64,000 nucleotides of DNA from NCBI GenBank assembly GCA_963765535.1, contig CAVXWU010000014.1, positions 391,963-455,962 on the forward strand. Reading direction: 5' to 3'. Below, one piece after another: positions 1,317 through 40,108 of this stretch. Made by a program: the position numbers and the translations under genes. How positions within the stretch are numbered: the first letter of the stretch is position 1; every line of letters starts with the position of its first letter. Source of the stretch: an uncultured Verrucomicrobiae bacterium (GTDB lineage Bacteria; Verrucomicrobiota; Verrucomicrobiia; Limisphaerales; JAHDYP01). The notes under the pieces were generated by a model that saw only the letters and a program-made list of their open reading frames with translations, made no database searches and was not told the origin of the DNA.

Positions 1317-2057
1317 ATGCGAATCGTTGGTGTCATCCCCGCGCGCTACGCCTCCTCCCGGTTCCCCGGCAAATCCCTCGCCCTGATTGCCGGCAAGCCC
1401 CTGATCCAGCGAGTCGTTGAACAGTGCCGCCAGGCCCGAGCCCTCGCCGACGTCGTTGTCGCGACCGACGACCACCGCATTGCCCGCGTCGTCGAACCCT
1501 TCTGCCGCGTCGAAATGACGCTTCCCTCCCACGCCAGCGGTTCAGACCGGATCGCCGAGGTCGCCGCGCGTCTTTCCTGCGACGCCCTCATCAATGTCCA
1601 GGGCGATGAACCACTGATTCCGCCCGCGGTTATCGAATTGATCGCCAGCACACTCAAGCAACACCCGGTCACCACCGCCGCTAGCCCGATTCGCACCATG
1701 GCCGATTATGACGATCCCAATGTCGTGAAGGTGGTTCTCAATTCCCAGCACCAAGCCCTCTACTTCTCGCGTCGCACCATCCCTTACGTCCGCGACGCCG
1801 CCACTGGCCCAGCTCAGGCCCAATTGAGCTCATTCCCGTTCCTCAAGCACCTGGGTATCTATGGCTACCAGCGCGATGCCCTCCTGCGCCTGGTCCATCT
1901 CCCGGTCTCCTCGCTCGAAGCCGCGGAAAAGCTCGAACAATTGCGCGCCCTCGAGAACGGCATTCCGATCCTCGTCCTCCAAGTCGATTACGAGAGCCAC
2001 GGGGTCGATACTCCCGAAGATATCCCCAGGATCGAGGCGATTCTTCGAAAGGCTTGA
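1317..2057 (+). CDS. kdsB: 3-deoxy-manno-octulosonate cytidylyltransferase (CMP-Kdo synthetase)
   Basis: 246 aa, MRIVGVIPARYASSRFPGKSLALIAGKPLIQ...NVQGDEPLI...: canonical KdsB motifs. Confidence 0.9.
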   Translation: MRIVGVIPARYASSRFPGKSLALIAGKPLIQRVVEQCRQARALADVVVATDDHRIARVVEPFCRVEMTLPSHASGSDRIAEVAARLSCDALINVQGDEPLIPPAVIELIASTLKQHPVTTAASPIRTMADYDDPNVVKVVLNSQHQALYFSRRTIPYVRDAATGPAQAQLSSFPFLKHLGIYGYQRDALLRLVHLPVSSLEAAEKLEQLRALENGIPILVLQVDYESHGVDTPEDIPRIEAILRKA

Positions 2058-2249
2058 TCACTTCCGCCAAGGTCACCGGCCGGATTTATAGCCGGCTTCG
2101 GCCCCAGGAGCTCCAGATTCGTGCTTCCACACTCCTTGTTCCTTGCCGGGGATGGAAAGAACCCTTAAGTATTCCCGCCAGCGTGATGGACTCGAAAGGT
2201 CGGTGCCACTTCAACAGTCCCACGGGTTCGACACGACTTGCTACGGCCT

Positions 2250-3869
2250 ATGAAGTACATCTTTGTAACCGGCGGTGTGGTCAGTTCCCTGGGCAAGGGA
2301 CTGACGGCAGCCGCGCTGGGAACGCTGCTGGAGAATCGCGGGCTTAAAATTGCCCTGCAGAAGTTTGACCCCTATTTGAACGTCGATCCCGGCACGATGA
2401 ATCCCTATCAGCACGGGGAGGTTTATGTCTTGGACGACGGCGCGGAAACGGACCTGGACCTGGGCCATTACGAACGATTCACCAACGTCAAGCTCACCCG
2501 CTTCAATAACCTCACCAGCGGCCAGGTCTACCAAACGGTCCTCGACAAAGAACGGCGGGGGGATTACCTCGGCAAGACCGTCCAGGTCATCCCCCATGTG
2601 ACTGATGAAATCCAGAATCGGATCTACCAGGTGGCCGAACATACCAAGGCCGACGTCATTATCACCGAGATCGGCGGCACCACGGGTGATATCGAAGGGT
2701 TGCCCTTCCTTGAGGCCATCCGCGAGTTCGCTCTCGAAGTGGGTCACAGTAACGCCCTGTTCATCCACGTCACGTTCGTGCCGTATATCAAGGCCGCCGG
2801 CGAACTGAAAACCAAACCTACCCAGCAATCCGTCGCCAAATTGCGCGAAATCGGAATCGCCCCGCACATCCTGATCTGCCGCTGCGAACGGCCCCTGGAC
2901 AAGGATCTGCGTCAGAAGATTTCCCTTTTCTGCAACGTCCCTTTCGAGGCGGTCGTTGAGGAGAAAGACGTGGATCATAGCATTTATGAAGTCCCCTTGA
3001 TGCTCCAACGCGAACGCCTCGATGAGCTCGTCTGCCGGTTCCTGCACCTCGACACCGGCGTCTCCAACATGACGCATTGGCAGGAAATCATACGCAAAAT
3101 CATCGCCCCGCAAAACCGCGTTCGGATCGGTGTGGTCGGCAAATATATCGACCTCCAGGACGCCTATAAATCGGTCTACGAGGCGATCATGCACGGCGGC
3201 GTTGCCAACGATTGCGGCATCGAGATCGTCAAGGTCGATGCCGAAGAAATTGAACGCGAAGGCACGGACAAAGTGCTCAAAGGCCTCGGCGGGATACTCG
3301 TGCCTGGCGGATTCGGCGAACGCGGCATCGAAGGGAAAATCAAGGCCGCCCGCTATGCCCGCGAACAAAAAGTCCCGTACCTCGGACTCTGCCTGGGCAT
3401 GCAAATCGCCACCATCGAGTTCGCTCGCGATGTGCTCGGACTCCACGGCGCCCACTCTGCCGAGTTCGACTCCCACACCCCTCACCCGGTCATCGCCTTG
3501 CTTAACGAGCAGCGCCAGGTGACCGCCAAAGGCGGAACCATGCGTCTGGGGGCTCAACCCTGCCAACTGATGGTCGGCTCGGCCGCCGCCCGGCTCTACG
3601 GCGCCTTTGTCGTCAATGAACGCCATCGGCATCGATACGAGTTCAATAACCATTACCGCGAGCAATTTGAGAAGAACGGATTCATCATCAGCGGCACTTC
3701 ACCCGATGGTTTGTTGGTCGAACTCATCGAGTTGCCCGATCATCCCTTCTTTATGGCCGCCCAGTTTCATCCCGAATTCCGCAGCAAACCGCACCAGCCC
3801 CATCCCTTGTTCAAGGGCTTCATTGCCGCCGTTCACGCCAGGATTCACCAGAAGTCCTCGAAAAACTGA
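2250..3869 (+). CDS. pyrG: CTP synthase
   Basis: [17 protein letters not shown]... N-terminus, and a glutaminase domain with GLCLGMQ and HRHRYE motifs. Start moved from the TTG at 2238 to the ATG at 2250, which gives the canonical MKYIFVTGG start. Confidence 0.97.
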
Positions 3870-3899: not shown

Positions 3900-5186
3900 A
3901 TGACTTATCCCGAGGCCATCGACTTTCTGTATCGCCTGCGCCTGTTCGGGCTCAAGCTGGGCCTGGACAACACGTTGTTCCTCGCCGAGCTCGCCGGCAA
4001 CCCCCATCGCAAGCTCCGGTTCATCCACGCCGCGGGCACCAATGGCAAGGGATCGACCTGCGCGATGCTCGAGGGCATCTACCGCGCTGCCGGACTTCGC
4101 ACCGGGCTTTTTACCTCGCCTCACCTTGTCGGCTTCAGCGAAAGGATCCAGGTCAACCGCCAACCCATCTCCGGCGGCGACGTCGTCCGCCTGGTCGAGC
4201 GCGCCCGCAATCGCCTGGTTCATTTCCCGGAGGATCATCACCCGACTTTTTTTGAGGTCATCGTCGTCCTCGCCCTCGAATACTTCGTCGAACAAGGCTG
4301 CGACCTCGTGATCTGGGAAACCGGTATGGGCGGGCGCCTCGACGCGACCAATATCGTCACCCCACTGGCCAGCATCATCACCAACATCCAGTTCGATCAC
4401 CAAAAATGGCTCGGCGATACCCGCCCCAGCATCGCCGCCGAAAAGGCCGGCATAATCAAATACGAAATCCCCGTGCTCACCTCCACGGACGAACCTGACG
4501 CGCTGGAGGTCATCACCGATATCGCCCGGGCTCAACACGCACCACTCATTCTCGTCGACCGCCAACATTCGGCCTACGCCCAGGCCAGAACCATCGACTT
4601 GCCGCTCGCGGGTGAACATCAACGGCTGAACGCCGCCCTGGCGATCGCCGCCGTCTCTCTCCTCGAATCTCACATTCCGGTCACCCCCGATCAACTCCGC
4701 GCCGGGCTGGAACACGTCCACTGGCCCGGGCGGCTCCAACTCGTCCCGCTTCCGGGCGATCGTCGCGTCCTGTTGGATGGGGCGCATAACCCCGCCGGGG
4801 CGACCGCCCTCCAACAGGCCCTCGATCGGTATTTCCCCCAAACGCCCTGGACCCTGATCTTCGGCAGCCTCCAGGACAAAGATTGGCCGCGCATGGCCGG
4901 GGTCCTGGCGCCCCTGTCCAACCGCATCCTTTGCGTGCCGGTCCGAAGCGAACGCGGTGGCTCACCCGGCGAACTGGCTGCCGCCTGCCGCCAATCCAAC
5001 CCTCGGGCAGCAGTTGATGCCTGCAGCACGGTCCAACAAGCGCTCGATCAATCCGCCACCGATCCCTTCATCGTGGTGGCCGGCTCGCTTTATCTCGTGG
5101 GCGAAGTCATGGAGTTGCTCAAGTTGTCTCCCATGGATATGGGCAGCGAGGCACACCTCAATGAGTCCTTCACCCGGCCTGGCTAG
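3900..5186 (+). CDS. folC: Bifunctional folylpolyglutamate synthase / dihydrofolate synthase
   Basis: 428 aa with a Mur-ligase-type P-loop (HAAGTNGKGST), FTSPHL, and DGAHNPAG near the C-terminal domain. Confidence 0.9.
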   Translation: MTYPEAIDFLYRLRLFGLKLGLDNTLFLAELAGNPHRKLRFIHAAGTNGKGSTCAMLEGIYRAAGLRTGLFTSPHLVGFSERIQVNRQPISGGDVVRLVERARNRLVHFPEDHHPTFFEVIVVLALEYFVEQGCDLVIWETGMGGRLDATNIVTPLASIITNIQFDHQKWLGDTRPSIAAEKAGIIKYEIPVLTSTDEPDALEVITDIARAQHAPLILVDRQHSAYAQARTIDLPLAGEHQRLNAALAIAAVSLLESHIPVTPDQLRAGLEHVHWPGRLQLVPLPGDRRVLLDGAHNPAGATALQQALDRYFPQTPWTLIFGSLQDKDWPRMAGVLAPLSNRILCVPVRSERGGSPGELAAACRQSNPRAAVDACSTVQQALDQSATDPFIVVAGSLYLVGEVMELLKLSPMDMGSEAHLNESFTRPG

Positions 5187-5229
5187 ACCGTTCACCCGGC
5201 GGCACAGGACGCGCCCGCTCAAAGCCGAG

Positions 5230-5257
5230 TTGACGTAAGCCCGTTCAACCCTATAAA
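5230..5257 (+). promoter_or_regulatory. Candidate promoter of the lipid cluster operon (TTGACG-16 nt-TATAAA)
   Basis: TTGACG at 5230-5235 and TATAAA at 5252-5257, 17 nt before the ATG at 5275 (very short leader, no obvious SD). Pattern only. Confidence 0.3.
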
Positions 5258-5274
5258 CGTCCCTGGTTGCTTTC

Positions 5275-6030
5275 ATGAACTTGCCATTAGCGGGAAAAAT
5301 TGCGTTCGTCACGGGGGGAACCCGCGGCATCGGCCGGGCCATCGCACTGAAACTGGCCGAGGCGGGTTGCGACGTCGCCATTCTCTATCATAACAGCCAC
5401 GCCGAAGCCGATTCGCTCTGCGCGGCGCTTCGCGAAATGGGCCGGACGGCCGTGGCCATCCAGGCCGACGTTGGGGATGCACTCAGCCTGGATGAAGCCA
5501 CCACCGCTTTTCGCTCCACGTTCAATCGCGTCGACTTTCTGGTGAGCAACGCGGCCATCGGCGTGTTGCGGCCGACCCTCGAATTAGCCTTGAAACACTG
5601 GCGCCGTTGTCTCGAGACCAATGCCCTGGCACTGAACACCCTGGCGCAACACCTGGTTCCAATCATGGCCCCCGGCGGGCGAATCATCGCCCTCTCCAGC
5701 CTCGGCGCCGCCCGTGCCATCCCGCACTACGCCTTCATCGGGGCCTCCAAAGCCGCCCTCGAATCCCTCGTCCGCAGTCTCGCGCAGGAACTTGGGCCTC
5801 GACGCATCGCGGTGAATGTCGTCAGCGCTGGAGTAGTGGATACGGATGCATTGGCGCATTTCCCAAACCGCGAAGAATTGCTGGCGGAATACGCCCGGCG
5901 GACACCGCTCGGGCCCTCGCTGACCCCCGCCGACGTGGCCAATGCGGTGTACTTGCTCTGCCTGCCCGAAGCGGCCATGATCACCGGCCACACCCTGGTG
6001 GTGGATGGCGGTTACTGTATCTCCGGATGA
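5275..6030 (+). CDS. fabL: SDR-family enoyl-[ACP] reductase, FabL-like
   Basis: 251 aa with TGGTRGIGRAIA (TGxxxGIG), NAAIGVLRPTLELALKHW, Y..IGASKAALE, and DTDALAHFPNREELLAEYARRTPLG. From memory these blocks match B. subtilis FabL (YgaA) closely ([39 protein letters not shown]). Confidence 0.75.
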   Translation: MNLPLAGKIAFVTGGTRGIGRAIALKLAEAGCDVAILYHNSHAEADSLCAALREMGRTAVAIQADVGDALSLDEATTAFRSTFNRVDFLVSNAAIGVLRPTLELALKHWRRCLETNALALNTLAQHLVPIMAPGGRIIALSSLGAARAIPHYAFIGASKAALESLVRSLAQELGPRRIAVNVVSAGVVDTDALAHFPNREELLAEYARRTPLGPSLTPADVANAVYLLCLPEAAMITGHTLVVDGGYCISG

Positions 6031-6791
6031 ACAACCCAACCCTGCTCGATGCCGGCCTGAATGGCGGCGTGGCCATTGTGACGGGAGGCAGTCGCGGCAT
6101 CGGCCGCGCCATTGTCCTGCTCCTGGCGGCCTCGGGCATGGAGGTCGTGTTCACCTATCGCGAGAATGCCACCGCCGCAAACGAAGTGGTCGCCGCGGCT
6201 CAAGACTCCAAAGTCATCGCCGTACCCGCCGATGTGCGCGACGCCTCCTCCTGCTCCACGCTCGTCGAGCAGGTCGTCCAGCGCACCGGCAAACTGGATC
6301 TGCTCGTCAATAATGCCGGCGTGATCCGCGACAATCTCCTGGCCCTCCTCCAGGAACAGGACGTTCGCGATGTCCTCGATACCAATGTGGGCGGCGCCTT
6401 TAACATGTGCCGCGCGGCCGTCCCCCACCTCCTGAGCCAGCGCCGCGGAAAAATCGTGAACATCAGCTCCGTCGCCGGTGAAAAGGGCGGACGCGGCCAG
6501 ACCAATTATGCCGCCAGCAAAGGCGCGATCAACGCCCTCACCCGTTCCCTCGCCGTCGAACTTGCCTCCCGCGGCATCCAGGTCAACGCCGTCGCCCCCG
6601 GCGTGATCGAGACCGAGATGTCCCGCGCCGTCCGCGAGCAAGCCGGGGATCAAGTCCAATCGCGCATTCTCCTGCGGCGGATTGGCCGTCCCGAAGAGGT
6701 GGCTTATGCCGTCTGGTTTCTGGCTTCTAAATATGCCGACTATATCACCGGGCAGGTCTTGCACGTGGATGGCGGTTTCAAAATGGAATGA
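6027..6791 (+). CDS. 3-oxoacyl-[ACP] reductase, FabG-like SDR
   Basis: MNNPTLLDAGLNGGVAIVTGGSRGIGRAI...NNAGV...NISSVAGEKGGRGQTNYAASKGAINALT...: classical SDR. The track ORF starts at 5607, but its first 140 aa overlap fabL out of frame. The ATG at 6027 overlaps the fabL stop (ATGA). Confidence 0.8.
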   Translation: MNNPTLLDAGLNGGVAIVTGGSRGIGRAIVLLLAASGMEVVFTYRENATAANEVVAAAQDSKVIAVPADVRDASSCSTLVEQVVQRTGKLDLLVNNAGVIRDNLLALLQEQDVRDVLDTNVGGAFNMCRAAVPHLLSQRRGKIVNISSVAGEKGGRGQTNYAASKGAINALTRSLAVELASRGIQVNAVAPGVIETEMSRAVREQAGDQVQSRILLRRIGRPEEVAYAVWFLASKYADYITGQVLHVDGGFKME

Positions 6792-35215: not shown

Positions 35216-35875
35216 ATGAATCGAACAAGCCATGCCGTCAGAATCAAAGCACTGACTACCTGCCTATCGTGCTATGCGCTCTGCTGCACGGCGGCGGCGC
35301 CGCCACCTGTTGATCTGGATCTTGCATCCGCCGAGGTTTCGCGCTGTTACGCCAACGCTCACCCTGAGGTTCAGGAATTTGTCCTTCACACAGCGCGCAC
35401 ATTCGGAGCCAACGGTATGTGGCTCAATGAAAATGCCTGCGCCACGCTCAAACCCGAGGAGCGTGAAACCAGAATTGTCTATCTCAGGCAACTGTTCAAC
35501 GAAGCCGAGTACGGGCGCCACCTTTGTGCTGCACTGGCCGAAGCCAGCGCCTTTAAGGATCCCCGGCTCGTCAGCGGACTGCTCAAAGTGGCGGCATACC
35601 ATGCGGACGATAGGGATTACGATTGCCGCCCCAAATGGATGGCCATCGCGGCACTTGCTCGTCAGGAATCACCGGAGGCAGTGCCGGTCTTGGTTAGTCT
35701 GGTGGATCATGGCAACCAGAACACGCGCTTTTGGGCGCGCGCTGCCCTGGCGCGCATGGCGAAGGCCGATTTCAAGAACGACAAACAAGCCTGGAACGAG
35801 TGGTGGATCGCTCATGGCCACCCGGCAATCGACGCGAAACTTCTGACGCCCTACGCACCACCTCCCTCAAAATGA
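35216..35875 (+). CDS. Exported HEAT-repeat-like hypothetical protein
   Basis: 219 aa with a signal-like N-terminus. The helical-repeat segment ESPEAVPVLVSLVDHGNQNTRFWARAALARM resembles HEAT/PBS-lyase repeats. Confidence 0.6.
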   Translation: MNRTSHAVRIKALTTCLSCYALCCTAAAPPPVDLDLASAEVSRCYANAHPEVQEFVLHTARTFGANGMWLNENACATLKPEERETRIVYLRQLFNEAEYGRHLCAALAEASAFKDPRLVSGLLKVAAYHADDRDYDCRPKWMAIAALARQESPEAVPVLVSLVDHGNQNTRFWARAALARMAKADFKNDKQAWNEWWIAHGHPAIDAKLLTPYAPPPSK

Positions 35876-35950
35876 GCAGGGCTACGATGATAACGATGAT
35901 CCCGAAAGCGCGCCACAATGGGAGGTCATTTGAGCTCATCGTATGCAACA

Positions 35951-36049
35951 CTGACCGAACGATGAGGCCAGCCATGCCGGGCCACTGATGACCGAAGAAG
36001 CCCGAGCCGGACTCCCGGCATCAGGGGCGAGCCGACTGGTTCGCTGCAG
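35951..36049 (-). repeat. attC-like imperfect palindrome 1 (downstream of the nucleotidyltransferase cassette)
   Basis: Gene-orientation sequence: CTGCAGCGAACCAGTCGGCTCGCCCCTGATGCCGGG...CCCGGCATGGCTGGCCTCATCGTTCGGTCAG. It abuts the stop codon at 36050-36052. The internal 8-bp arms ATGCCGGG / CCCGGCAT pair. Confidence 0.5.
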
Positions 36050-36589
36050 TCATTTCCTATCAGGTGGATCAAGTCGTCTCTTCAAATCGTCCGACAGCAG
36101 CATCCACAGTCGAGGGTGCGCTTCGAGCAGGCGTGCAACATCACCGAGATCCTTGATTCGCTTGCTCTGCCTCCTGTCTGGATCCGACCATGCCTTCATC
36201 TTGCCTTTCAGTGTGTCCTCCAATGAAGCAACGCGGAGCAGAATGCCATGCACGTCAGCCGCAACACCCCGATCGGGATAGTCCCGATAGCACTCCTCTG
36301 TGCTTAGTTGGATGCTGAGCTTGGATCGCCCCCTGAAGTTAATAGACCACTGGAACCGCTCGGCAGTGAATCCGGCCGCCTCCAAAATGCCCACGGTCTG
36401 CTCCACAGCGTCAGTCGCAACCACAAAATCCACATCCTGGGTCACCATCGGCTCATCAGCCCAATGATTCACGGCAACCCCTCCTATCGCGCACCAGGGG
36501 ATGTCGGCGCGCTCAAGGCAATCCACAAGGCGCATCACGTCATCTGTGCCTCCCGCAGTCTGCCAATCGTAGAACTGTTTCGCCGTCAC
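36050..36589 (-). CDS. Pol-beta-superfamily nucleotidyltransferase (minimal NTase / MNT-like), GTG start
   Basis: 179 aa with AIGGVAVNHWADEPMVTQDVDFVV, matching the G[GS]-x(9-13)-[DE]x[DE] NTase signature. No HEPN partner is adjacent. Confidence 0.7.
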   Translation of the reverse strand: MTAKQFYDWQTAGGTDDVMRLVDCLERADIPWCAIGGVAVNHWADEPMVTQDVDFVVATDAVEQTVGILEAAGFTAERFQWSINFRGRSKLSIQLSTEECYRDYPDRGVAADVHGILLRVASLEDTLKGKMKAWSDPDRRQSKRIKDLGDVARLLEAHPRLWMLLSDDLKRRLDPPDRK

Positions 36590-36640
36590 GCCCGAAGCGT
36601 ATCAAGCCGGAAAAGCGCCGCGACATTTTTCCGCCGAACG

Positions 36641-36742
36641 TAGGTATAGCGACCGCCGCCGGAAACGCCCGGTCGGCTGCAAGAGTCGCTGACAAATCAC
36701 CCGAACCGTCCAACTGCCCAGCGGGGCGGCGGTTCGCTGCAG
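36641..36742 (-). repeat. attC-like imperfect palindrome 2 (downstream of the zinc-ribbon cassette)
   Basis: Gene orientation: GCAGCGAACCGCCGCCCCGC...GCGTTTCCGGCGGCGGTCGCTATACCTACGTTCGGCGG. CGAAC/GTTCG and CGCCGCC/GGCGGCG pair, with an about 14-nt asymmetric bulge on the 3' side. Confidence 0.5.
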
Positions 36743-36769
36743 CGCCCTGGTTCGACAGCAGGGTCCTAG

Positions 36770-36991
36770 TCAAAACATACTAAACTTCTTGCATGTCCGG
36801 CACCAGCCGCCGCCGCCGAGAGTCGCCCAAACCAGTAAGTAAATACCTGTGAGAACAAGAATGATGGCCGGAGCCCAAAACCAATGCAGATAAAACGGGA
36901 TGACAATCGAACCCAGCATCAGCACTCCAACTGTGACGAGCCGGGTTCGGCTCTTCTGAATCATCTCTCCGCCACAAGTCTTGCAGTTCAT
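36770..36991 (-). CDS. Small zinc-ribbon membrane protein (hypothetical)
   Basis: MNCKTCGGEM...two predicted TM helices...WCRTCKKFSMF (CxxC ... CxxC). Start at the ATG at 36991, 13 nt after attC-like site 3; the longer track start (37042) would lie inside that site. Confidence 0.5.
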   Translation of the reverse strand: MNCKTCGGEMIQKSRTRLVTVGVLMLGSIVIPFYLHWFWAPAIILVLTGIYLLVWATLGGGGWCRTCKKFSMF

Positions 36992-37004
36992 AAAAAACTG
37001 GATT

Positions 37005-37090
37005 CCGCCGAACGACAGAGGACCGATGAGCGGCCCTCCCAAACCATTGATATTCCAACTGCACGTGCTGGCCGCTCATTCGGTCGCTCG
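37005..37090 (-). repeat. attC-like imperfect palindrome 3 (downstream of the hicBA-GNAT cassette)
   Basis: Gene orientation: CGAGCGAC-CGAATGAGCGGCC...GGCCGCTCATCG-GTCCTCT-GTCGTTCGGCGG. The 13-bp arm pairing has one bulged A, and the outer arms CGAGCGAC/GTCGTTCG have one mismatch. It begins 5 nt after the GNAT stop. Confidence 0.5.
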
Positions 37091-37095
37091 ATTGG

Positions 37096-37563
37096 CTAGG
37101 CATATTCACGCTTTCGCTCCCACCTCCACACAGTGCCATCTTCGGGGTCGATCACCTGCCCGACACTCCGAAATCCAGCCTTCAGAACGACACGGGACGA
37201 AGCGCCGGTGGGATCTAAAGTGTGGGCGATCACCATTTGGACTTCAGCACTCTCGAACGCTACCCGAAGCAAAGCACGCGCAACTTGCGTCGCATACCCT
37301 CGCCCTTCGAATGGCGGCGAAATGCCGTAGGCAATTTCAACGACTCCGTTGACAGGCGGCATCTTAAATCCTCCCTGTCCGATTAGAGCCCCGTCTTCGG
37401 CGCGAACCGCTGTGTACCCGAGCGTCCAATGGTCAACCGACGGAGAATTGATCCGCGCATGCCACTCCGGCGACACCTGCGCACGGTGGGGAGGCGGCAG
37501 CGCTTCGATCATTGCCAGCGCATCCTTCGCGGTTTTGGGAACGAGTTTTATGACATCTGCCAT
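37096..37563 (-). CDS. GNAT family N-acetyltransferase
   Basis: 155 aa with VEIAYGISPPFEGRGYATQVARALLRVAF (acetyl-CoA binding motif A-like R/Q-x-x-G-x-G/A) and RimJ/L-like length. Confidence 0.8.
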   Translation of the reverse strand: MADVIKLVPKTAKDALAMIEALPPPHRAQVSPEWHARINSPSVDHWTLGYTAVRAEDGALIGQGGFKMPPVNGVVEIAYGISPPFEGRGYATQVARALLRVAFESAEVQMVIAHTLDPTGASSRVVLKAGFRSVGQVIDPEDGTVWRWERKREYA

Positions 37564-37727
37564 GACGGACAGCTATTTTGCCTAACGGAAATATAGGCAC
37601 GCCGGGCCGAGCGAGTCCGCTCCACACGATGACGGCGTCCCGGCGTTGCTTGCCGCATCGAGACGAATCCTAACGCCTCCAGAATCCGACACACCTCGCG
37701 AGGCTTCAGGACTGGCAGCTTCCCCAT
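37548..37727 (-). CDS. hicA: HicA-family mRNA interferase toxin (divergent or possibly degraded C-terminus)
   Basis: 59 aa. MGKLPVLKPREVCRILEALGFVSMRQ matches the HicA N-terminal pattern (K/R..EV.R.LE..GF...RQ). The C-terminal half is atypical, and an alternative frame (track ORF 37433..37627) reads WSGLARPGVPIFPLGK, so a frameshift cannot be excluded. It overlaps the hicB stop and the GNAT start. Confidence 0.55.
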   Translation of the reverse strand: MGKLPVLKPREVCRILEALGFVSMRQATPGRRHRVERTRSARRAYISVRQNSCPSWQMS

Positions 37728-37939
37728 GTCTGCCCCACTTGGATCATCTGTGTTCCGACAAACTCCGTCTGCAGTGGCGGTTCGCCATCCTCCAACAGCA
37801 TCCCGACAACCTCCTCGAGATTGCGCTTCAACTCGTCCAAAGAGTCGCCCTGCGAATGCGCCCCGGCGAAACCCGGCACGTACCCGACATAAAGGCCGGT
37901 GTCCGGGCATTTCTCAACGACTGCCGTGAACGACTTCAT
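37706..37939 (-). CDS. hicB: HicB-family antitoxin (UPF0150-type, no DNA-binding extension)
   Basis: 77 aa. MKSFTAVVEKCPDTGLYVGYVPGFAGAHSQGDSLDELKRNLEEVVGMLLE is the classic HicB N-terminal fold pattern. Confidence 0.75.
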   Translation of the reverse strand: MKSFTAVVEKCPDTGLYVGYVPGFAGAHSQGDSLDELKRNLEEVVGMLLEDGEPPLQTEFVGTQMIQVGQTWGSCQS

Positions 37940-38000
37940 GTGCAGACGCTATGCGCTTCGTCCCAGCGAGTCAAAGCTTGCGACACCGCACGAAATGCTA

Positions 38001-38115
38001 CAGGCCGAACGTAGAACTGCGCGACTGCCGCCGGAAACGCAAGCTTGAGCGTCAGCGGCGCGTTCGAATTGACGCCTCGCGTCAAGCGGAGAGGCGGGGC
38101 GGCAGTTCGTCTGCC
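38001..38115 (-). repeat. attC-like imperfect palindrome 4 (upstream of the hicB cassette)
   Basis: Gene orientation: GCAGACGAACTGCCGCCCCGC...TTGACGC-GAG-GCGTCAA...GCGTTTCCGGCGGCAGTCGCGCAGTTCTACGTTCGGCCTG. Both ends are nearly identical to site 2 over about 20 and about 35 nt, while the centre differs. Confidence 0.5.
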
Positions 38116-38245
38116 GGGTAGGGGCCGGGGTTGCATCTCCATAGAACTCTTGATCCGGAGATCCGATCCGATCAAGACTCCGCCCGTCCTCAACGACTTT
38201 GGGCGGTGATGGATTTCAGTGGGCAGGGTCGGTGGGATAATCGGT

Positions 38246-40108
38246 ATGACGCTTCATCCGATCGATTTGATCATCATCGCGGTTTATCTGCTCTCGACGG
38301 TGGCGATTGGTTTGCTGCTGCAACGGCGGGCGGCGCGGAGCATGGACGCCTATTTCCTGGGGGGAAAGACACTGCCGTGGTACCTGCTCGGGTTGTCGAA
38401 TGCCTCGGGGATGTTCGACATCTCGGGGACGATGTGGATGGTGACCCTGGCGTTTGTTTATGGGTTAAAGAGTATCTGGGTGCCGTGGCTATGGCCGGTG
38501 TTCAACCAGATCTTTCTGATGATCTACCTCTCCGCCTGGCTGCGACGGTCCAATGTTCTGACCGGCGCGGAATGGATTCGGAAGCGGTTCGGGGATGGCC
38601 CGGGGGGACGATTATCGCACTGGGTAGTGGTGGGTTTTGCGGTCATCGGCGTGGTGGGTTTTCTGAGTTACGGGTTTATCGGGATTGGCAAGTTCATCGC
38701 GATTTTCATCCCGTGGGATGCGGTGGCGCCGTTTGTGCCTTTTGAGATTCCGCCCGAGTATGTGCCCCATTTTTATGGAATCCTGTTCACGGGCATCACG
38801 ACTTTTTACGTCATACTGGGCGGCATGTTGAGCATCGTCTGGGCGGACGTGATGCAATTCTCGATCATGTTTGTTTCGTCGATTGCGGTCGGACTGATCG
38901 CGATGAGCCGGGTCGATCCCGCCATGGTCCGGGGAATGGTGCCGGAGGGATGGATGAGCCCATTCTTTGGTTGGCGGCTTGATTTGGACTGGAGCGGGCA
39001 CTTGGCGTCCGTGAATGAAAAGATCGCCTCGGATGGTTTCACGCTGTTCGGTCTTTTCTTCATGATGATGTTATTCAAGGGGGTGTTCGCCGCGATGGCG
39101 GGGCCGGCGCCGAACTACGACATGCAAAAGATCCTTTCGACGCGCACCCCGGCGGAGGCGTGCAAGATGAGCGGTTTTGTGTCGGTGGTGCTCTTGTTCC
39201 CGCGCTATTTCATGATCACCGGGTTTGCGGTGTTGGCGGTGGTCTTTTTCCGTGGCGATTTCCAACAGATGGGAGGGGCGGTCGATTTCGAAAAAGTGCT
39301 GCCTTTGGCGATCAAGGAATTCGTGCCGCCGGGATGGACGGGGCTATTGTTGGCGGGATTGTTTGCGGCATTCATGGGAACGTTTGCCTCGACGATGAAC
39401 GCGGCGCCGGCGTACCTGATCAACGACGTCTACCTGCGTTACATCAATCCAAAGGCCACCGGAAAGAAGCTCATCTACGGCAGTTACCTGGTCTGCGCGC
39501 TGGTTGTCATTCTGAGCACGGTGGTCGGTTTTTTTGTGGCGGACATCAACAGTATATTGCAGTGGATCGTTTCGGCATTGTATGGGGGATATATCGCCGC
39601 GAACGTCCTCAAGTGGCATTGGTGGCGGTTCAATGGCCATGGTTACTTCTGGGGCATGCTGGCGGGAATCGCGGCTTCGATGGTGTTCCCGCTCCTTTTC
39701 CCCGGAGCCCTGCCGCTCTATTATTTCCCACTGACCCTCGCCGTTTCGGTGTTGGGCTGCATCGCAGGGACATTCGCGACCCCGCCCACGGACGAAAATG
39801 TGTTGATGGAATTCTATCGCACGACGCGGCCATGGGGTTTTTGGAGGCCGGTACACGACCGGGTAGTCGCGGCCGATCCCGATTTTGAGCGGAACACCGA
39901 GTTTCGGCGGGACATGGTCAACGTGGCGGTGGGCATCGTCTGGCAACTCTGTCTGACGATTGTGCCCATATACATTGTGCTGAAACAGGGTCTGCCTTTG
40001 GCGGCGTCTGTGGCGATCCTCGGAGTGACTTCCGTGATCCTGAAGAAGAACTGGTATGATCGGCTGGATTACGGCGCGCCTATCGGACCTGGAACCAAAT
40101 CGTCTTGA
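38246..40108 (+). CDS. Sodium:solute symporter (SSS) family transporter
   Basis: About 620 aa with 13 or more predicted TM helices. The N-terminal MTLHPIDLIIIAVYLLSTVAIGLL...YFLGGKTLPWYLLGLS is the typical SSS start. Confidence 0.9.
   Translation: MTLHPIDLIIIAVYLLSTVAIGLLLQRRAARSMDAYFLGGKTLPWYLLGLSNASGMFDISGTMWMVTLAFVYGLKSIWVPWLWPVFNQIFLMIYLSAWLRRSNVLTGAEWIRKRFGDGPGGRLSHWVVVGFAVIGVVGFLSYGFIGIGKFIAIFIPWDAVAPFVPFEIPPEYVPHFYGILFTGITTFYVILGGMLSIVWADVMQFSIMFVSSIAVGLIAMSRVDPAMVRGMVPEGWMSPFFGWRLDLDWSGHLASVNEKIASDGFTLFGLFFMMMLFKGVFAAMAGPAPNYDMQKILSTRTPAEACKMSGFVSVVLLFPRYFMITGFAVLAVVFFRGDFQQMGGAVDFEKVLPLAIKEFVPPGWTGLLLAGLFAAFMGTFASTMNAAPAYLINDVYLRYINPKATGKKLIYGSYLVCALVVILSTVVGFFVADINSILQWIVSALYGGYIAANVLKWHWWRFNGHGYFWGMLAGIAASMVFPLLFPGALPLYYFPLTLAVSVLGCIAGTFATPPTDENVLMEFYRTTRPWGFWRPVHDRVVAADPDFERNTEFRRDMVNVAVGIVWQLCLTIVPIYIVLKQGLPLAASVAILGVTSVILKKNWYDRLDYGAPIGPGTKSS

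What the first reader, a model, noticed from the sequence alone, without database searches (positions are those of the whole stretch)
35951..38115. Integron-like cassette array (CALIN-type) with four attC-like sites carrying NTase, zinc-ribbon, and hicBA-GNAT cassettes
SEEN: Between two unrelated genes (HEAT-like protein ending at 35875 and SSS symporter starting at 38246) lie five small genes, all on the minus strand, forming three units.
- Each unit is followed within 0-27 nt of its stop by an 86-115-bp imperfect palindrome.
- In gene orientation the four sites begin GCAGCGAACC (36049), GCAGCGAACC (36742), CGAGCGACCG (37090) and GCAGACGAACT (38115).
- All four end in CGTTCGG(C/T): ...CATCGTTCGGTCAG, ...CTACGTTCGGCGG, ...TGTCGTTCGGCGG, ...CTACGTTCGGCCTG.
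- The outer CGAAC/GTTCG boxes and an inner box pair (for example CGCCGCC/GGCGGCG, or CGAATGAGCGGCC/GGCCGCTCATCG with a bulged A) are complementary, with asymmetric unpaired bases. The centres are unrelated between sites 1, 3 and 2/4.
- ORF starts lie 13-61 nt after the preceding site.
- After the last site a short ORF (ATG 35939, MSSNDLPLWRAFGIIVIIVALLIL...) runs into the 3' end of the convergent core gene, as expected for a truncated terminal cassette.
ESTABLISHED: integron cassettes are promoterless ORFs, each followed by an attC site with conserved R''(..AAC)/R'(GTT..) ends, L boxes, extrahelical bases and a variable centre. Toxin-antitoxin pairs and GNATs are typical cargo of chromosomal arrays. 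Clusters of attC sites lacking an integrase (CALINs) are known.
INFERENCE: this is a small CALIN-type array with non-canonical attC cores (GTTCGGY instead of GTTRRRY), in a lineage where integron cassettes are little studied. No tyrosine recombinase is in the window.
Basis: partly seen in the sequence, partly recalled or inferred. Interest (0 to 1): 0.8.

Follow-up and report, generated by a model that had tools for sequence, protein, structure and literature searches.

The report
Small integron cassette array without integrase
Four small mobile "gene cassettes", each ending in an integron recombination site, sit between two ordinary genes of a Verrucomicrobiota genome with no integrase nearby; this is a real but already well-known kind of element (a CALIN), and here it is partly decayed.

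Summary
The four palindromes at 35951-38132 (minus strand) are true integron attC sites.

- **Same family elsewhere.** A genome-collection scan seeded with the arms of two of them found the same family in more than 80 loci, mostly Verrucomicrobiota and Planctomycetota MAGs. There the sites form arrays spaced about 0.4-0.6 kb apart.
- **Link to integrases.** At least 11 of the arrays lie next to integron integrases (7 tested with TIGR02249: 400-479 bits, cut-off 265).
- **Model scores.** A covariance model built only from those foreign sites scores the window's sites at 93.9, 54.3, 50.2 and 23.4 bits. Nothing else in the 64 kb scores. The same model finds textbook class 1 attC sites.
- **Cassette mobility.** The NTase and hicBA cassettes recur between attC sites in unrelated arrays.
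- **No integrase.** No IntI is present in the window, so this is a CALIN.

- For sites 2 and 4, the "R'' box" GCAGCGAAC is really an inner CGA[A]C bulge motif. The true R'' lies about 15 nt upstream.
- GTTCGGY is a common variant in this lineage (C at position 4 in 40 of 120 sites), not an oddity.
- hicA is truncated and is followed by a probable attC remnant. That makes four cassettes rather than three units.
- Several sites are degenerate.

Integrons and CALINs are already documented in Verrucomicrobia, so this is a new member of a known kind.

The parts
38001..38132 (-). attC site S4 (type B, 5' outer part and R'' degenerate). It is the leftover attC of a lost upstream cassette. R' GTTCGGC lies at 38010-38004.
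   Evidence: R1 scores 72.8 bits, E 1e-16, as a global match. R2 scores 54.3 bits, E 1.3e-11, as a local match to model positions 23-108 only. The stem CGA[A]CTGCCGCC/GGCGGCAGTCG shows a compensatory C-G to T-A change relative to S2. The site is 82% identical to L123 attC 6562-6668.
37706..37939 (-). hicB-like antitoxin gene (77 aa), first gene of cassette 1.
   Evidence: Pfam UPF0150/HicB_lk_antitox, E 8e-6 and 1e-4, both just below cut-off. It is 60% identical to the hicB of an intact hicBA cassette lying between two attC sites in L057.
37548..37727 (-). Truncated hicA toxin gene. Only the first 26 codons (37727-37650) are HicA-like; the rest of the ORF reads through remnant attC sequence.
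   Evidence: Pfam HicA_toxin matches residues 10-38 only, at 19.8 bits against a cut-off of 27. tblastn aligns residues 1-26 (69% identity) to the 74-aa hicA of L057.
37577..37667 (-). Probable remnant attC (S5). It has an inner stem ACGCCGGGACG/CGGCCCGGCGT and a canonical R' GTTAGGC (37586-37580). R'' has been lost. It would separate a hicBA' cassette from the GNAT cassette.
   Evidence: Inverted repeat I25. R2 gives only 7.5 bits (E 0.023 in a 201-nt search, not significant window-wide). The GNAT ATG lies 17 nt after this R', as for the other cassettes. This part is weakly supported.
37096..37563 (-). GNAT acetyltransferase gene (155 aa), cassette 2.
   Evidence: Pfam Acetyltransf_3 E 1e-15 and Acetyltransf_1 E 4e-9.
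37004..37104 (-). attC site S3. R'' is GCCTAGC (37101-37095; AAC mutated to AGC, and it contains the GNAT stop codon). The stem is GACCGA[A]TGAGCGGCC/GGCCGCTCATCGGTC. R' GTTCGGC lies at 37013-37007.
   Evidence: R2 scores 50.2 bits, E 1.4e-10, full length. The bottom strand folds as a hairpin with one bulged base, z -2.56.
36770..36991 (-). 73-aa CxxC...CxxC membrane protein gene ('zinc ribbon'), cassette 3.
   Evidence: ORF seen. It has no Pfam family and is a singleton at 90% identity in the protein collection.
36630..36759 (-). attC site S2 (type A, 124 nt from R'' to R'). R'' GTCGAAC lies at 36756-36750. The inner stem is GCGA[A]CCGCCGCC/GGCGGCGGTCGC. R' GTTCGGC lies at 36639-36633.
   Evidence: R1 scores 116 bits, E 6e-28. 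R2 scores 93.9 bits, E 1.5e-21. It is near-identical in body to type-A sites that lie next to intI in L063 and L088.
36050..36589 (-). Nucleotidyltransferase (AbiEii/MNT-like) gene, 179 aa, cassette 4.
   Evidence: Pfam AbiEii E 2e-7. It falls in a 90%-identity cluster with 9 members. An 82%-nt homologue lies between two attC sites in L122-L125, and the homology starts at the R' crossover.
35951..36048 (-). attC site S1, the most divergent. R'' AGCGAAC lies at 36045-36039 and R' GTTCGGT at 35960-35954. The 5' arm is partly degenerate.
   Evidence: R2 scores 23.4 bits, E 7e-4, full length, about the same as the qacG2 attC (23.1 bits). The 3' arm is 94% identical to that of L123 attC 1667-1762.
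35876..35950 (-). 75-nt tail between S1 and the stop of the convergent HEAT gene. It could be the stub of a further cassette, but this is unverified.
   Evidence: It is only an ORF start (ATG 35939). tblastn of the ORF against all loci found no homologue. HEAT homologues are 210-215 aa, so the HEAT gene is intact.

Best explanation
**What it is.** This is a short, partly decayed integron gene-cassette array that lacks its own integrase (a CALIN), in a Verrucomicrobiota chromosome. Read on the minus strand, it is:

S4 (orphan attC) | hicB-hicA' (+ remnant attC S5) | GNAT + S3 | Zn-ribbon membrane protein + S2 | NTase + S1.

**Site architecture.** Each site follows the lineage's attC plan:
- R'' (RYYYAAC-like, for example GCCTAAC or GTCGAAC).
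- About 13 nt of spacer.
- A CGA[A]C motif opening a long variable stem.
- The complementary arm, ending in GTCGC.
- About 11 nt of spacer.
- R' (GTTAGGC or GTTCGGC).

**How it works (inferred).** This follows established integron biology. The bottom strand folds into a hairpin with extrahelical bases. An IntI tyrosine recombinase binds the folded strand and cuts between G and TT of R'. Each ORF-plus-attC unit can therefore be excised as a circle and reinserted elsewhere.

**Consequences here (inferred).** No integrase and no attI/Pc lie within the window (at least 25.9 kb on each side). Movement would therefore need an IntI supplied in trans. Expression would need cassette-internal or read-through promoters.

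**State of the sites.** S2 looks intact. S3 carries a mutation in the R'' core. S1 has a degenerate arm. S4 has lost R''. The hicA toxin is truncated. The array is best read as a remnant of a larger array that is now eroding.

**Shown versus inferred.**
- Shown: family membership of the sites, their association with IntI elsewhere, recurrence of the cassettes in other arrays, and absence of IntI in the window.
- Inferred: the recombination chemistry, present-day (in)activity, and origin.
For: 1. **Family found in other genomes.** The genome-contig scan used the S2/S4 arms (CGAACYGCCGCC N50-80 GGCGGCRGTCGC). It hit 119 or more stretches, mostly in Verrucomicrobiota and Planctomycetota MAGs. 71 matches were exactly 88 nt long.
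2. **Canonical core boxes.** The flanks of those hits carry canonical R'' GCCTAAC and R' GTTAGGC.
3. **Arrays next to integrases.** The sites form unidirectional arrays, for example 14 in L110, 13 in L013 and 8 in L088. Full-length IntI lies beside them: tblastn gives 43-57% identity to IntI1 in 10 loci. TIGR02249 scores 400-479 bits, against a cut-off of 265, in 6 of 6 tested, and 453 bits in L127.
4. **Covariation.** On 120 sites, 93.1% of cells are paired against 78% in shuffles. 21 of 24 pairs show compensatory changes. Slid controls give 19-44%.
5. **Model on the window.** Models R1 and R2 contain no window sequence. R2 finds S2, S4, S3 and S1 (93.9, 54.3, 50.2 and 23.4 bits) and nothing else in 64 kb.
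6. **Reciprocal test.** R2 finds the class 1 attC sites of aadA2 (46.7 bits) and of two cassettes in pABWA45_2 (36.3 and 23.1 bits) exactly between the cassette genes. It finds nothing else in 26 kb at E below 0.3.
7. **Cassette mobility.** The NTase homologue (82% nt) lies between attC sites in L122-L125 with different neighbours. The homology starts at the R' crossover and ends at R''. An intact hicBA cassette lies between attC sites in L057.
8. **No integrase here.** No IntI-like sequence is in the window, even at E up to 10.
9. **Cargo.** TA systems and acetyltransferases are typical cassette cargo. Integrons are reported in Verrucomicrobia(ota) (PMC4889954, PMC8618304).
Against: - S1 is only marginally significant (E 7e-4 with roughly calibrated E-values). 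Its MFE fold is not the canonical hairpin.
- S4 lacks R'', and S3 has AGC instead of AAC in R''. At most one or two sites may still be recombinogenic.
- MFE z-scores of the individual window sites are weak (-0.4 to -2.6).
- IntegronFinder's own attC model could not be run.
- Only 64 kb of a 459-kb contig was visible, so an intI further away or on another contig cannot be excluded. No strain-level relatives were available to show presence/absence polymorphism at this locus.
Confidence: 0.93

Rival explanations
1. The palindromes are generic repetitive extragenic palindromes or transcription terminators that happen to follow small genes. They would have nothing to do with integrons.
For: They are GC-rich imperfect palindromes placed directly after stop codons. 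Their individual MFE z-scores are unremarkable.
Against: - No T-tract or terminator pattern exceeds the shuffled expectation.
- There are no further copies elsewhere in 64 kb.
- In other genomes the family occurs in unidirectional arrays next to TIGR02249 integrases.
- The family model recognises textbook attC sites.
- There is no Rfam match.
Confidence: 0.02
2. The array is not an eroding relic but a functional satellite of a complete integron encoded elsewhere in the same genome. This could come about by a rearrangement or by off-target insertion. Its cassettes would still be exchanged in trans.
For: - S2 is near-consensus (93.9 bits), and S3 folds as a proper hairpin.
- The array's GC content (0.59) equals that of the host (0.60), so the cassettes are native to the lineage.
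- Cury et al. report that about half of CALINs lie in replicons that also encode IntI (PMC4889954).
- Complete integrons with this attC family are common in the phylum.
Against: - Decay is visible. S4 has no R''. S3 has AAC mutated to AGC. The S1 arm is degenerate. hicA is truncated, with half an attC deleted.
- No intI lies within 25.9 kb or more on either side.
- An orphan attC (S4) upstream of the first gene argues against simple off-target insertion of single cassettes.
Confidence: 0.3
3. Only S2-S4 are attC sites. S1 and the S5 remnant would be chance palindromes, making the array smaller: three sites and two or three cassettes.
For: S1 scores 13 bits (E 0.33) with R1 and 23.4 bits with R2. 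S5 scores 7.5 bits.
Against: - S1 has R'' AGCGAAC and R' GTTCGGT at a full-length model alignment.
- Its 3' arm is 94% identical to that of a strong attC in L123 (45 bits).
- It scores as well as the genuine qacG2 attC.
- It lies 4 nt after the NTase stop, on the correct strand.
- S5 has a canonical GTTAGGC 17 nt before the GNAT start and sits exactly where the L057 hicBA cassette has its attC.
Confidence: 0.1

Closest known systems
CALIN (cluster of attC sites lacking an integron-integrase), as defined by Cury et al. 2016 (IntegronFinder; PMC4889954)
   Same: - It has two or more attC sites on one strand, each following a promoterless small ORF.
- No intI lies nearby.
- It is small: 83% of CALINs have fewer than 6 sites.
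- Its cargo is not homologous to clinical resistance cassettes.
- The same possible origins apply (loss of intI, rearrangement, off-target insertion).
   Different: - The integrase test here was done with a self-built lineage model and BLAST, not with IntegronFinder.
- Several sites are visibly eroded.
- Only 64 kb of the genome could be inspected.
Sedentary chromosomal integron arrays with homogeneous long attC sites, e.g. the Vibrio cholerae superintegron with its ~120-nt VCR repeats (established knowledge)
   Same: - The attC sites are long (93-126 nt) and fall into a few highly conserved sequence types, including the centre.
- TA cassettes (here hicBA) and acetyltransferases are among the cargo.
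- The cassettes are 0.37-0.68 kb long.
   Different: - There is no adjacent intI or attI, and only 4-5 sites.
- The conserved types are shared across orders and even phyla rather than within one species.
- The TA module is inactivated.
Class 1 integron attC sites (for example attC of aadA2 on pFBAOT6, and of qacG2 on pABWA45_2)
   Same: - The R''-spacer-stem(with bulge)-stem'-spacer-R' architecture is the same.
- The AAC/GTT core triplets are the same.
- Model R2, trained on the Verrucomicrobiota family, detects them at 46.7, 36.3 and 23.1 bits.
   Different: - The class 1 sites shown are 60-105 nt, against 92-126 nt here.
- R' here is GTTCGGY (C at position 4) rather than GTTRRRY.
- The bulge motif CGA[A]C is lineage-typical.
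HicAB type II toxin-antitoxin cassettes
   Same: The hicB-hicA gene order is the same, with hicA starting before hicB ends (4 nt upstream of its stop codon). There is 60-69% identity to an intact cassette-borne pair in L057.
   Different: The toxin gene is cut after codon 26, so the module is almost certainly non-functional. hicB scores just below Pfam cut-offs.

Membership tests
Integron attC recombination site | Inverted core sites: R'' (RYYYAAC) at the 5' end and R' (GTTRRRY) at the 3' end in gene orientation, mutually complementary. | tested here: met
   - S2: GTCGAAC / GTTCGGC.
- S1: AGCGAAC / GTTCGGT.
- S3: GCCTAGC / GTTCGGC, with AAC mutated.
- S4: R' only.
- Family consensus is GCCTAAC / GTTAGGC. 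Position 4 covaries (T-A 66, G-C 27).
- C at position 4 of R' departs from the RRR consensus but occurs in 40 of 120 family sites.
Integron attC recombination site | Imperfect palindrome (L boxes or long stem) with extrahelical bases on one arm only, and an unpaired spacer between the R and L boxes. | tested here: met
   - A conserved bulged A sits on the top strand (T on the bottom strand) in CGA[A]C of S2, S3 and S4. A second bulged base occurs in the family.
- Spacers of about 5-7 nt are unpaired in the folds of the reference sites and of S3.
- 21 of 24 pairs show compensatory changes.
Integron attC recombination site | Length about 57-141 nt. The site follows the ORF on the same strand. 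The sequence is variable but the structure conserved. | tested here: met
   - R''-to-R' lengths are 92 nt (S1), 124 nt (S2) and 95 nt (S3). S4 spans about 126 nt by the global model alignment, although its R'' is degenerate.
- Each R'' starts from overlapping the stop codon to 13 nt after it.
- Family lengths are 93-174 nt, median 121.5.
Integron attC recombination site | The family is physically associated with integron integrase genes (intI with the IntI-specific domain) in complete integrons. | tested here: met
   - IntI lies next to arrays of the same family in L063, L088, L072, L087, L114 and L048 (TIGR02249 400-479 bits, cut-off 265).
- The same holds in L127 (453 bits).
- tblastn hits occur in 10 loci.
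Integron attC recombination site | Recognised by a covariance model of attC sites. | tested here: met
   - The lineage model R2 (no window sequences in its training set) scores 93.9, 54.3, 50.2 and 23.4 bits.
- The same model detects textbook class 1 attC sites.
- IntegronFinder's own model (attc_4.cm) was not available, so that specific test was not run.
Integron attC recombination site | The folded bottom strand is bound and recombined by IntI. | not testable with these tools
   This needs an in vivo or in vitro recombination assay.
Mobile gene cassette | The same ORF (plus its boundary at the G|TT crossover) is found in different arrays with different neighbours. | tested here: met
   - NTase: the homology to L122-L125 begins at R' (window 36643) and ends at R'' (36033). 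The flanking cassettes differ.
- hicBA: an intact copy lies between attC sites in L057.
- The GNAT and Zn-ribbon cassettes have no close relatives.
CALIN (Cury et al. 2016) | [quoted passage not shown] | tested here: met
   - Four significant sites are present.
- No IntI-like sequence is in the 64-kb window with IntI1 or with a Verrucomicrobiota IntI as query, even at E up to 10.
- The rest of the genome could not be inspected.
Complete integron | intI gene, attI site and Pc promoter adjacent to the array. | tested here: not met
   - No intI or intI pseudogene is in the window.
- The sequence upstream of S4 runs directly into the divergent symporter gene.
- No promoter-like site exceeds chance on the array strand.
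REP/BIME-type repeats or intrinsic terminators | Dispersed genome-wide after unrelated genes; for terminators, a stem followed by a T-run. | tested here: not met
   There are no copies outside the array in 64 kb. Terminator-like sites do not exceed shuffles and do not coincide with the sites.

The most novel reading that the evidence does not exclude
**The reading.** The attC 'types' seen here are 126-nt sequences conserved almost base for base, including the normally variable centre. They occur in MAGs from several verrucomicrobial orders, in Planctomycetota, and next to a proteobacterial IntI. They may mark one prolific cassette-producing lineage whose cassettes flood other phyla. Alternatively, the conserved centre may carry an extra function.

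**A related observation.** The NTase ORF is joined to two unrelated attC bodies (S1 type in the window, type B in L123), with the homology ending exactly at R''. This could be a natural trace of attC replacement or de novo ORF-attC joining. That is the still unknown step of cassette genesis.
Probability: 0.12. Interest if true: 0.6.

Novelty: new member of a known kind. Interest (0 to 1): 0.25.

Why it matters
For this window, little changes. It is a correct call of an ordinary, eroding CALIN, and integrons and CALINs are already recorded in Verrucomicrobia.

The useful by-products are practical:
- A defined sequence-and-structure consensus and covariance model for the attC family of Verrucomicrobiota and Planctomycetota. 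The consensus is R'' GCCTAAC, about 13 nt of spacer, CGA[A]C plus stem ... stem' plus GTCGC, about 11 nt of spacer, then R' GTTAGGC or GTTCGGC.
- A caution on reading these long sites. The inner CGAAC motif is easily mistaken for R''.
- Two examples of cassettes shared between arrays, one of them carrying a different attC. These could feed studies of cassette flow and cassette origin in environmental phyla.

Tried and rejected
Z-scores were weak except for S3. Single-sequence folding is not a usable test here, so I relied on comparative models instead.
- **RNAalifold on the first alignment.** It recovered only the invariant stem imposed by the search pattern, so I supplied the structure by hand.
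- **Empty-site or polymorphism test.**
  - The window's own contig could not be fetched.
  - The closest symporter homologues (87% and 80%) are not syntenic.
  - HEAT homologues share no neighbours with the window.
  - An exact 35-mer from the symporter start is absent from the metagenome contigs.
- **REP/terminator reading.** Rejected.
- **Known RNA family.** None matched.
- **Fifth attC between hicA' and GNAT.** It is plausible by eye and by comparison with L057, but scores only 7.5 bits. I keep it as 'probable remnant', not as a finding.
- **'Truncated terminal cassette' ORF (ATG 35939).** There is no supporting homology, and the HEAT gene is full length. It remains unsupported.
- **Idea that the HEAT gene marks a conserved integron locus.** One homologue (L127) lies next to a complete integron. 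Four other contexts do not, or show only weak hits. This is not established.

Full report
**What is in the sequence.**

On the minus strand between 38132 and 35951 lie five small ORFs. They are flanked by a HEAT-repeat gene (35216-35875, plus strand) and a sodium:solute symporter (38246-40108, plus strand). Pfam assigns them as follows:
- An AbiEii/MNT-like nucleotidyltransferase (36050-36589).
- A GNAT acetyltransferase (37096-37563).
- A HicB-like protein (37706-37939).
- A HicA-like ORF (37548-37727), of which only residues 10-38 match.
- No family for the 73-aa CxxC...CxxC membrane protein (36770-36991).

CGTTCGGY occurs 12 times in the window against 9.7 expected. Four of these copies lie on one strand inside 2.2 kb, where about 0.17 are expected. 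That gives P of about 3e-5 (my Poisson estimate). The window comes from a Verrucomicrobiota MAG. Its symporter is 100% identical to a protein on a 459-kb NCBI/ENA contig and 87% identical to one from a 'Verrucomicrobia bacterium' MAG.

**The sites belong to a widespread family.**

Sites 2 and 4 share both arms, with a compensatory change (CGAAC[C/T]GCCGCC ... GGCGGC[G/A]GTCGC) and a bulged A. I scanned one genome per species with that pattern. It returned 119 or more stretches, overwhelmingly from Verrucomicrobiota and Planctomycetota MAGs. 71 matches were exactly 88 nt long, and several loci carried 2-3 copies.

About 13 nt upstream of the CGAAC motif is a canonical R'' box (GCCTAAC, GCCGAAC, GTTCAAC). 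About 11 nt downstream of GTCGC is a canonical R' box (GTTAGGC, GTTCGGC, GTTGGGC).

The full site is therefore: R'' - spacer - CGA[A]C + variable stem ... stem' + GTCGC - spacer - R'. It is 93-126 nt long in most cases.

**The family is integron attC.**

- **Integrases beside the sites.**
  - tblastn with IntI1 found full-length homologues (43-57% identity) beside these sites in ten loci.
  - Six of six tested ORFs hit NCBIfam TIGR02249 'integron integrase' at 400-479 bits, against a cut-off of 265.
- **Arrays.** Covariance model R1 was built from 70 foreign sites. It found 272 hits in 93 loci, arranged as unidirectional arrays with 0.4-0.6 kb spacing. Examples are eight sites directly downstream of a divergent intI in L088, and 14 sites in L110.
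- **Covariation.**
  - On 120 aligned sites, 93% of cells pair, against 78% in shuffles and 19-44% when partners are slid.
  - 21 of 24 pairs show compensatory changes.
  - The alignment was fitted to the model, which inflates these figures somewhat.
- **Folds.** Bottom strands of reference sites fold into the textbook hairpin. It has a 7-bp R box, an unpaired spacer, and a long stem with two bulged bases on one arm.
- **Reciprocal test.**
  - Model R2, built from 120 Verrucomicrobiota-type sites, detects the attC of aadA2 on pFBAOT6 at 46.7 bits. It detects the two cassette attCs of pABWA45_2 at 36.3 and 23.1 bits. All three sit exactly between the cassette genes.
  - Nothing else in 26 kb has E below 0.3.

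**The window's sites.**

R2 was run over the whole window without filters. It returns the four sites below, all on the minus strand, and no other forward hit with E below 0.5 (R1 gives the same order).

| Site | Coordinates | Bits | E-value | Match |
|---|---|---|---|---|
| S2 | 36630-36759 | 93.9 | 1.5e-21 | full length |
| S4 | 38022-38109 | 54.3 | 1.3e-11 | local, model positions 23-108 |
| S3 | 37004-37104 | 50.2 | 1.4e-10 | full length |
| S1 | 35951-36048 | 23.4 | 7e-4 | full length |

Corrected anatomy of each site:
- **S2** has R'' GTCGAAC (36756-36750) and R' GTTCGGC (36639-36633).
- **S3** has R'' GCCTAGC (37101-37095) and R' at 37013-37007. The conserved AAC is mutated to AGC, and the box contains the GNAT stop codon.
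- **S1** has R'' AGCGAAC (36045-36039) and R' GTTCGGT (35960-35954). Its 5' arm no longer matches its 3' arm well. That 3' arm is 94% identical to the arm of a strong attC in L123.
- **S4** has the inner stem and R' (38010-38004), but its R'' region is degenerate.

In S2 and S4 it is the inner bulge motif. GTTCGGY is not exotic in this lineage, because 40 of 120 reference sites have C at position 4 of R'.

**The cassettes are mobile units.**

- **NTase.**
  - It belongs to a 90%-identity cluster seen in several metagenomes.
  - In contigs L122-L125 its 82%-nt homologue lies between two attC sites (35 and 82 bits), next to a DDE transposase and Phd/RelB-like cassettes.
  - Homology with the window begins at the R' of the upstream attC and ends just after R''. 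The attC upstream of R' and the attC body after R'' are unrelated in the two genomes.
- **hicBA.** An intact hicB-hicA cassette lies between two attC sites in L057. It is 60% and 69% identical to the window's pair, and its hicA is 74 aa long.
- **Truncated hicA.**
  - In the window, hicA homology stops after codon 26.
  - What follows looks like the inner stem and 3' half of an attC, ending in a canonical GTTAGGC (37586-37580). That R' lies 17 nt before the GNAT start.
  - R2 gives this element only 7.5 bits, so I list it as a probable remnant.
- **Cassette sizes.** If the remnant is accepted, the array has four cassettes of 424, 573, 374 and 679 nt, preceded by an orphan attC (S4).

**No integrase; state and origin.**

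No IntI-like sequence exists in the window, using either IntI1 or a Verrucomicrobiota IntI as query, even at E up to 10. The element therefore meets the CALIN definition of Cury et al. (PMC4889954).

Several features indicate erosion:
- The orphan, 5'-degenerate S4.
- The half-deleted site after hicA'.
- The mutated R'' of S3.
- The degenerate arm of S1.

These point to a remnant of a larger array rather than a fresh off-target insertion. Whether an IntI elsewhere in the genome can still move S2/S3-flanked cassettes cannot be decided here. The array's GC content (0.59) equals that of its surroundings (0.59-0.60). No promoter-like or terminator-like pattern exceeds chance, and no Rfam family matches.

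**What could not be done.**

The source contig could not be retrieved. The nearest relatives are not syntenic. An exact junction-proximal 35-mer is absent from the metagenome contigs. The presence/absence test therefore remains open. The convergent HEAT gene is full length relative to 616 homologues.

**Comparison with the known, and verdict.**

Integrons have been reported in Verrucomicrobia and Planctomycetes, and CALINs are common. Toxin-antitoxin and acetyltransferase cassettes are among the most frequent cargo (PMC4889954, PMC8618304). This locus is a genuine, slightly decayed CALIN, which makes it a new member of a known kind. Interest is low to moderate.

Noticed in passing
window 36033-36643 versus L123:5947-6557 and L123:6542-6673: The same NTase ORF (82% nt identity) carries two unrelated attC bodies. 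In the window it is the 92-nt S1 type. In L122-L125 it is a 132-nt type B site that is 82% identical to window S4. Homology ends exactly after R''. This may be a trace of attC replacement or of a deletion between neighbouring attC sites.
   Followed up: partly
L072:314-445 and 1392-2381; L068; L026; versus L063, L088 and others: The 126-nt type-A attC is conserved almost base for base, including its centre. It occurs in MAGs labelled Verrucomicrobiota and Planctomycetota. It also occurs in Proteobacteria: the Methylobacillus flagellatus L1B isolate contig, next to an IntI 57% identical to IntI1, and a Competibacteraceae MAG. This suggests cross-phylum cassette flow, or in some cases MAG mis-binning.
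   Followed up: partly
L127:2057-7636: A 77%-identical homologue of the window's HEAT-repeat protein lies directly after a complete integron. The intI is at 2057-3121, and attC sites are at 3501, 3955, 4316, 4834 and 5315. Other HEAT homologue contexts (L126, L128-L133) show no attC hits or only weak ones. The HEAT gene shares no other neighbours between loci.
   Followed up: partly
L131:8858-16529: Downstream of another HEAT homologue lies a run of 16 small same-strand ORFs, including a UPF0175/DUF3368 TA pair. It looks like a cassette array but yields only one weak attC hit (23 bits). It may carry a different attC type, or it may not be an integron.
   Followed up: no
L123:2740-4059 and 4671-5588: A group II intron reverse transcriptase and a DDE transposase are embedded among attC sites in the array that carries the NTase homologue.
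   Followed up: no
window 37095-37101: The GNAT stop codon (TAG) lies inside the R'' box of S3 (GCCTAGC). With the consensus GCCTAAC the same frame would end in TAA. The attC therefore supplies the stop codon, and the A-to-G change keeps a stop while damaging the conserved AAC.
   Followed up: no
window 37665-37676: A second CGTTAGG string lies inside the conserved 5' part of hicA (codons EALGF). It is most likely coincidental.
   Followed up: no
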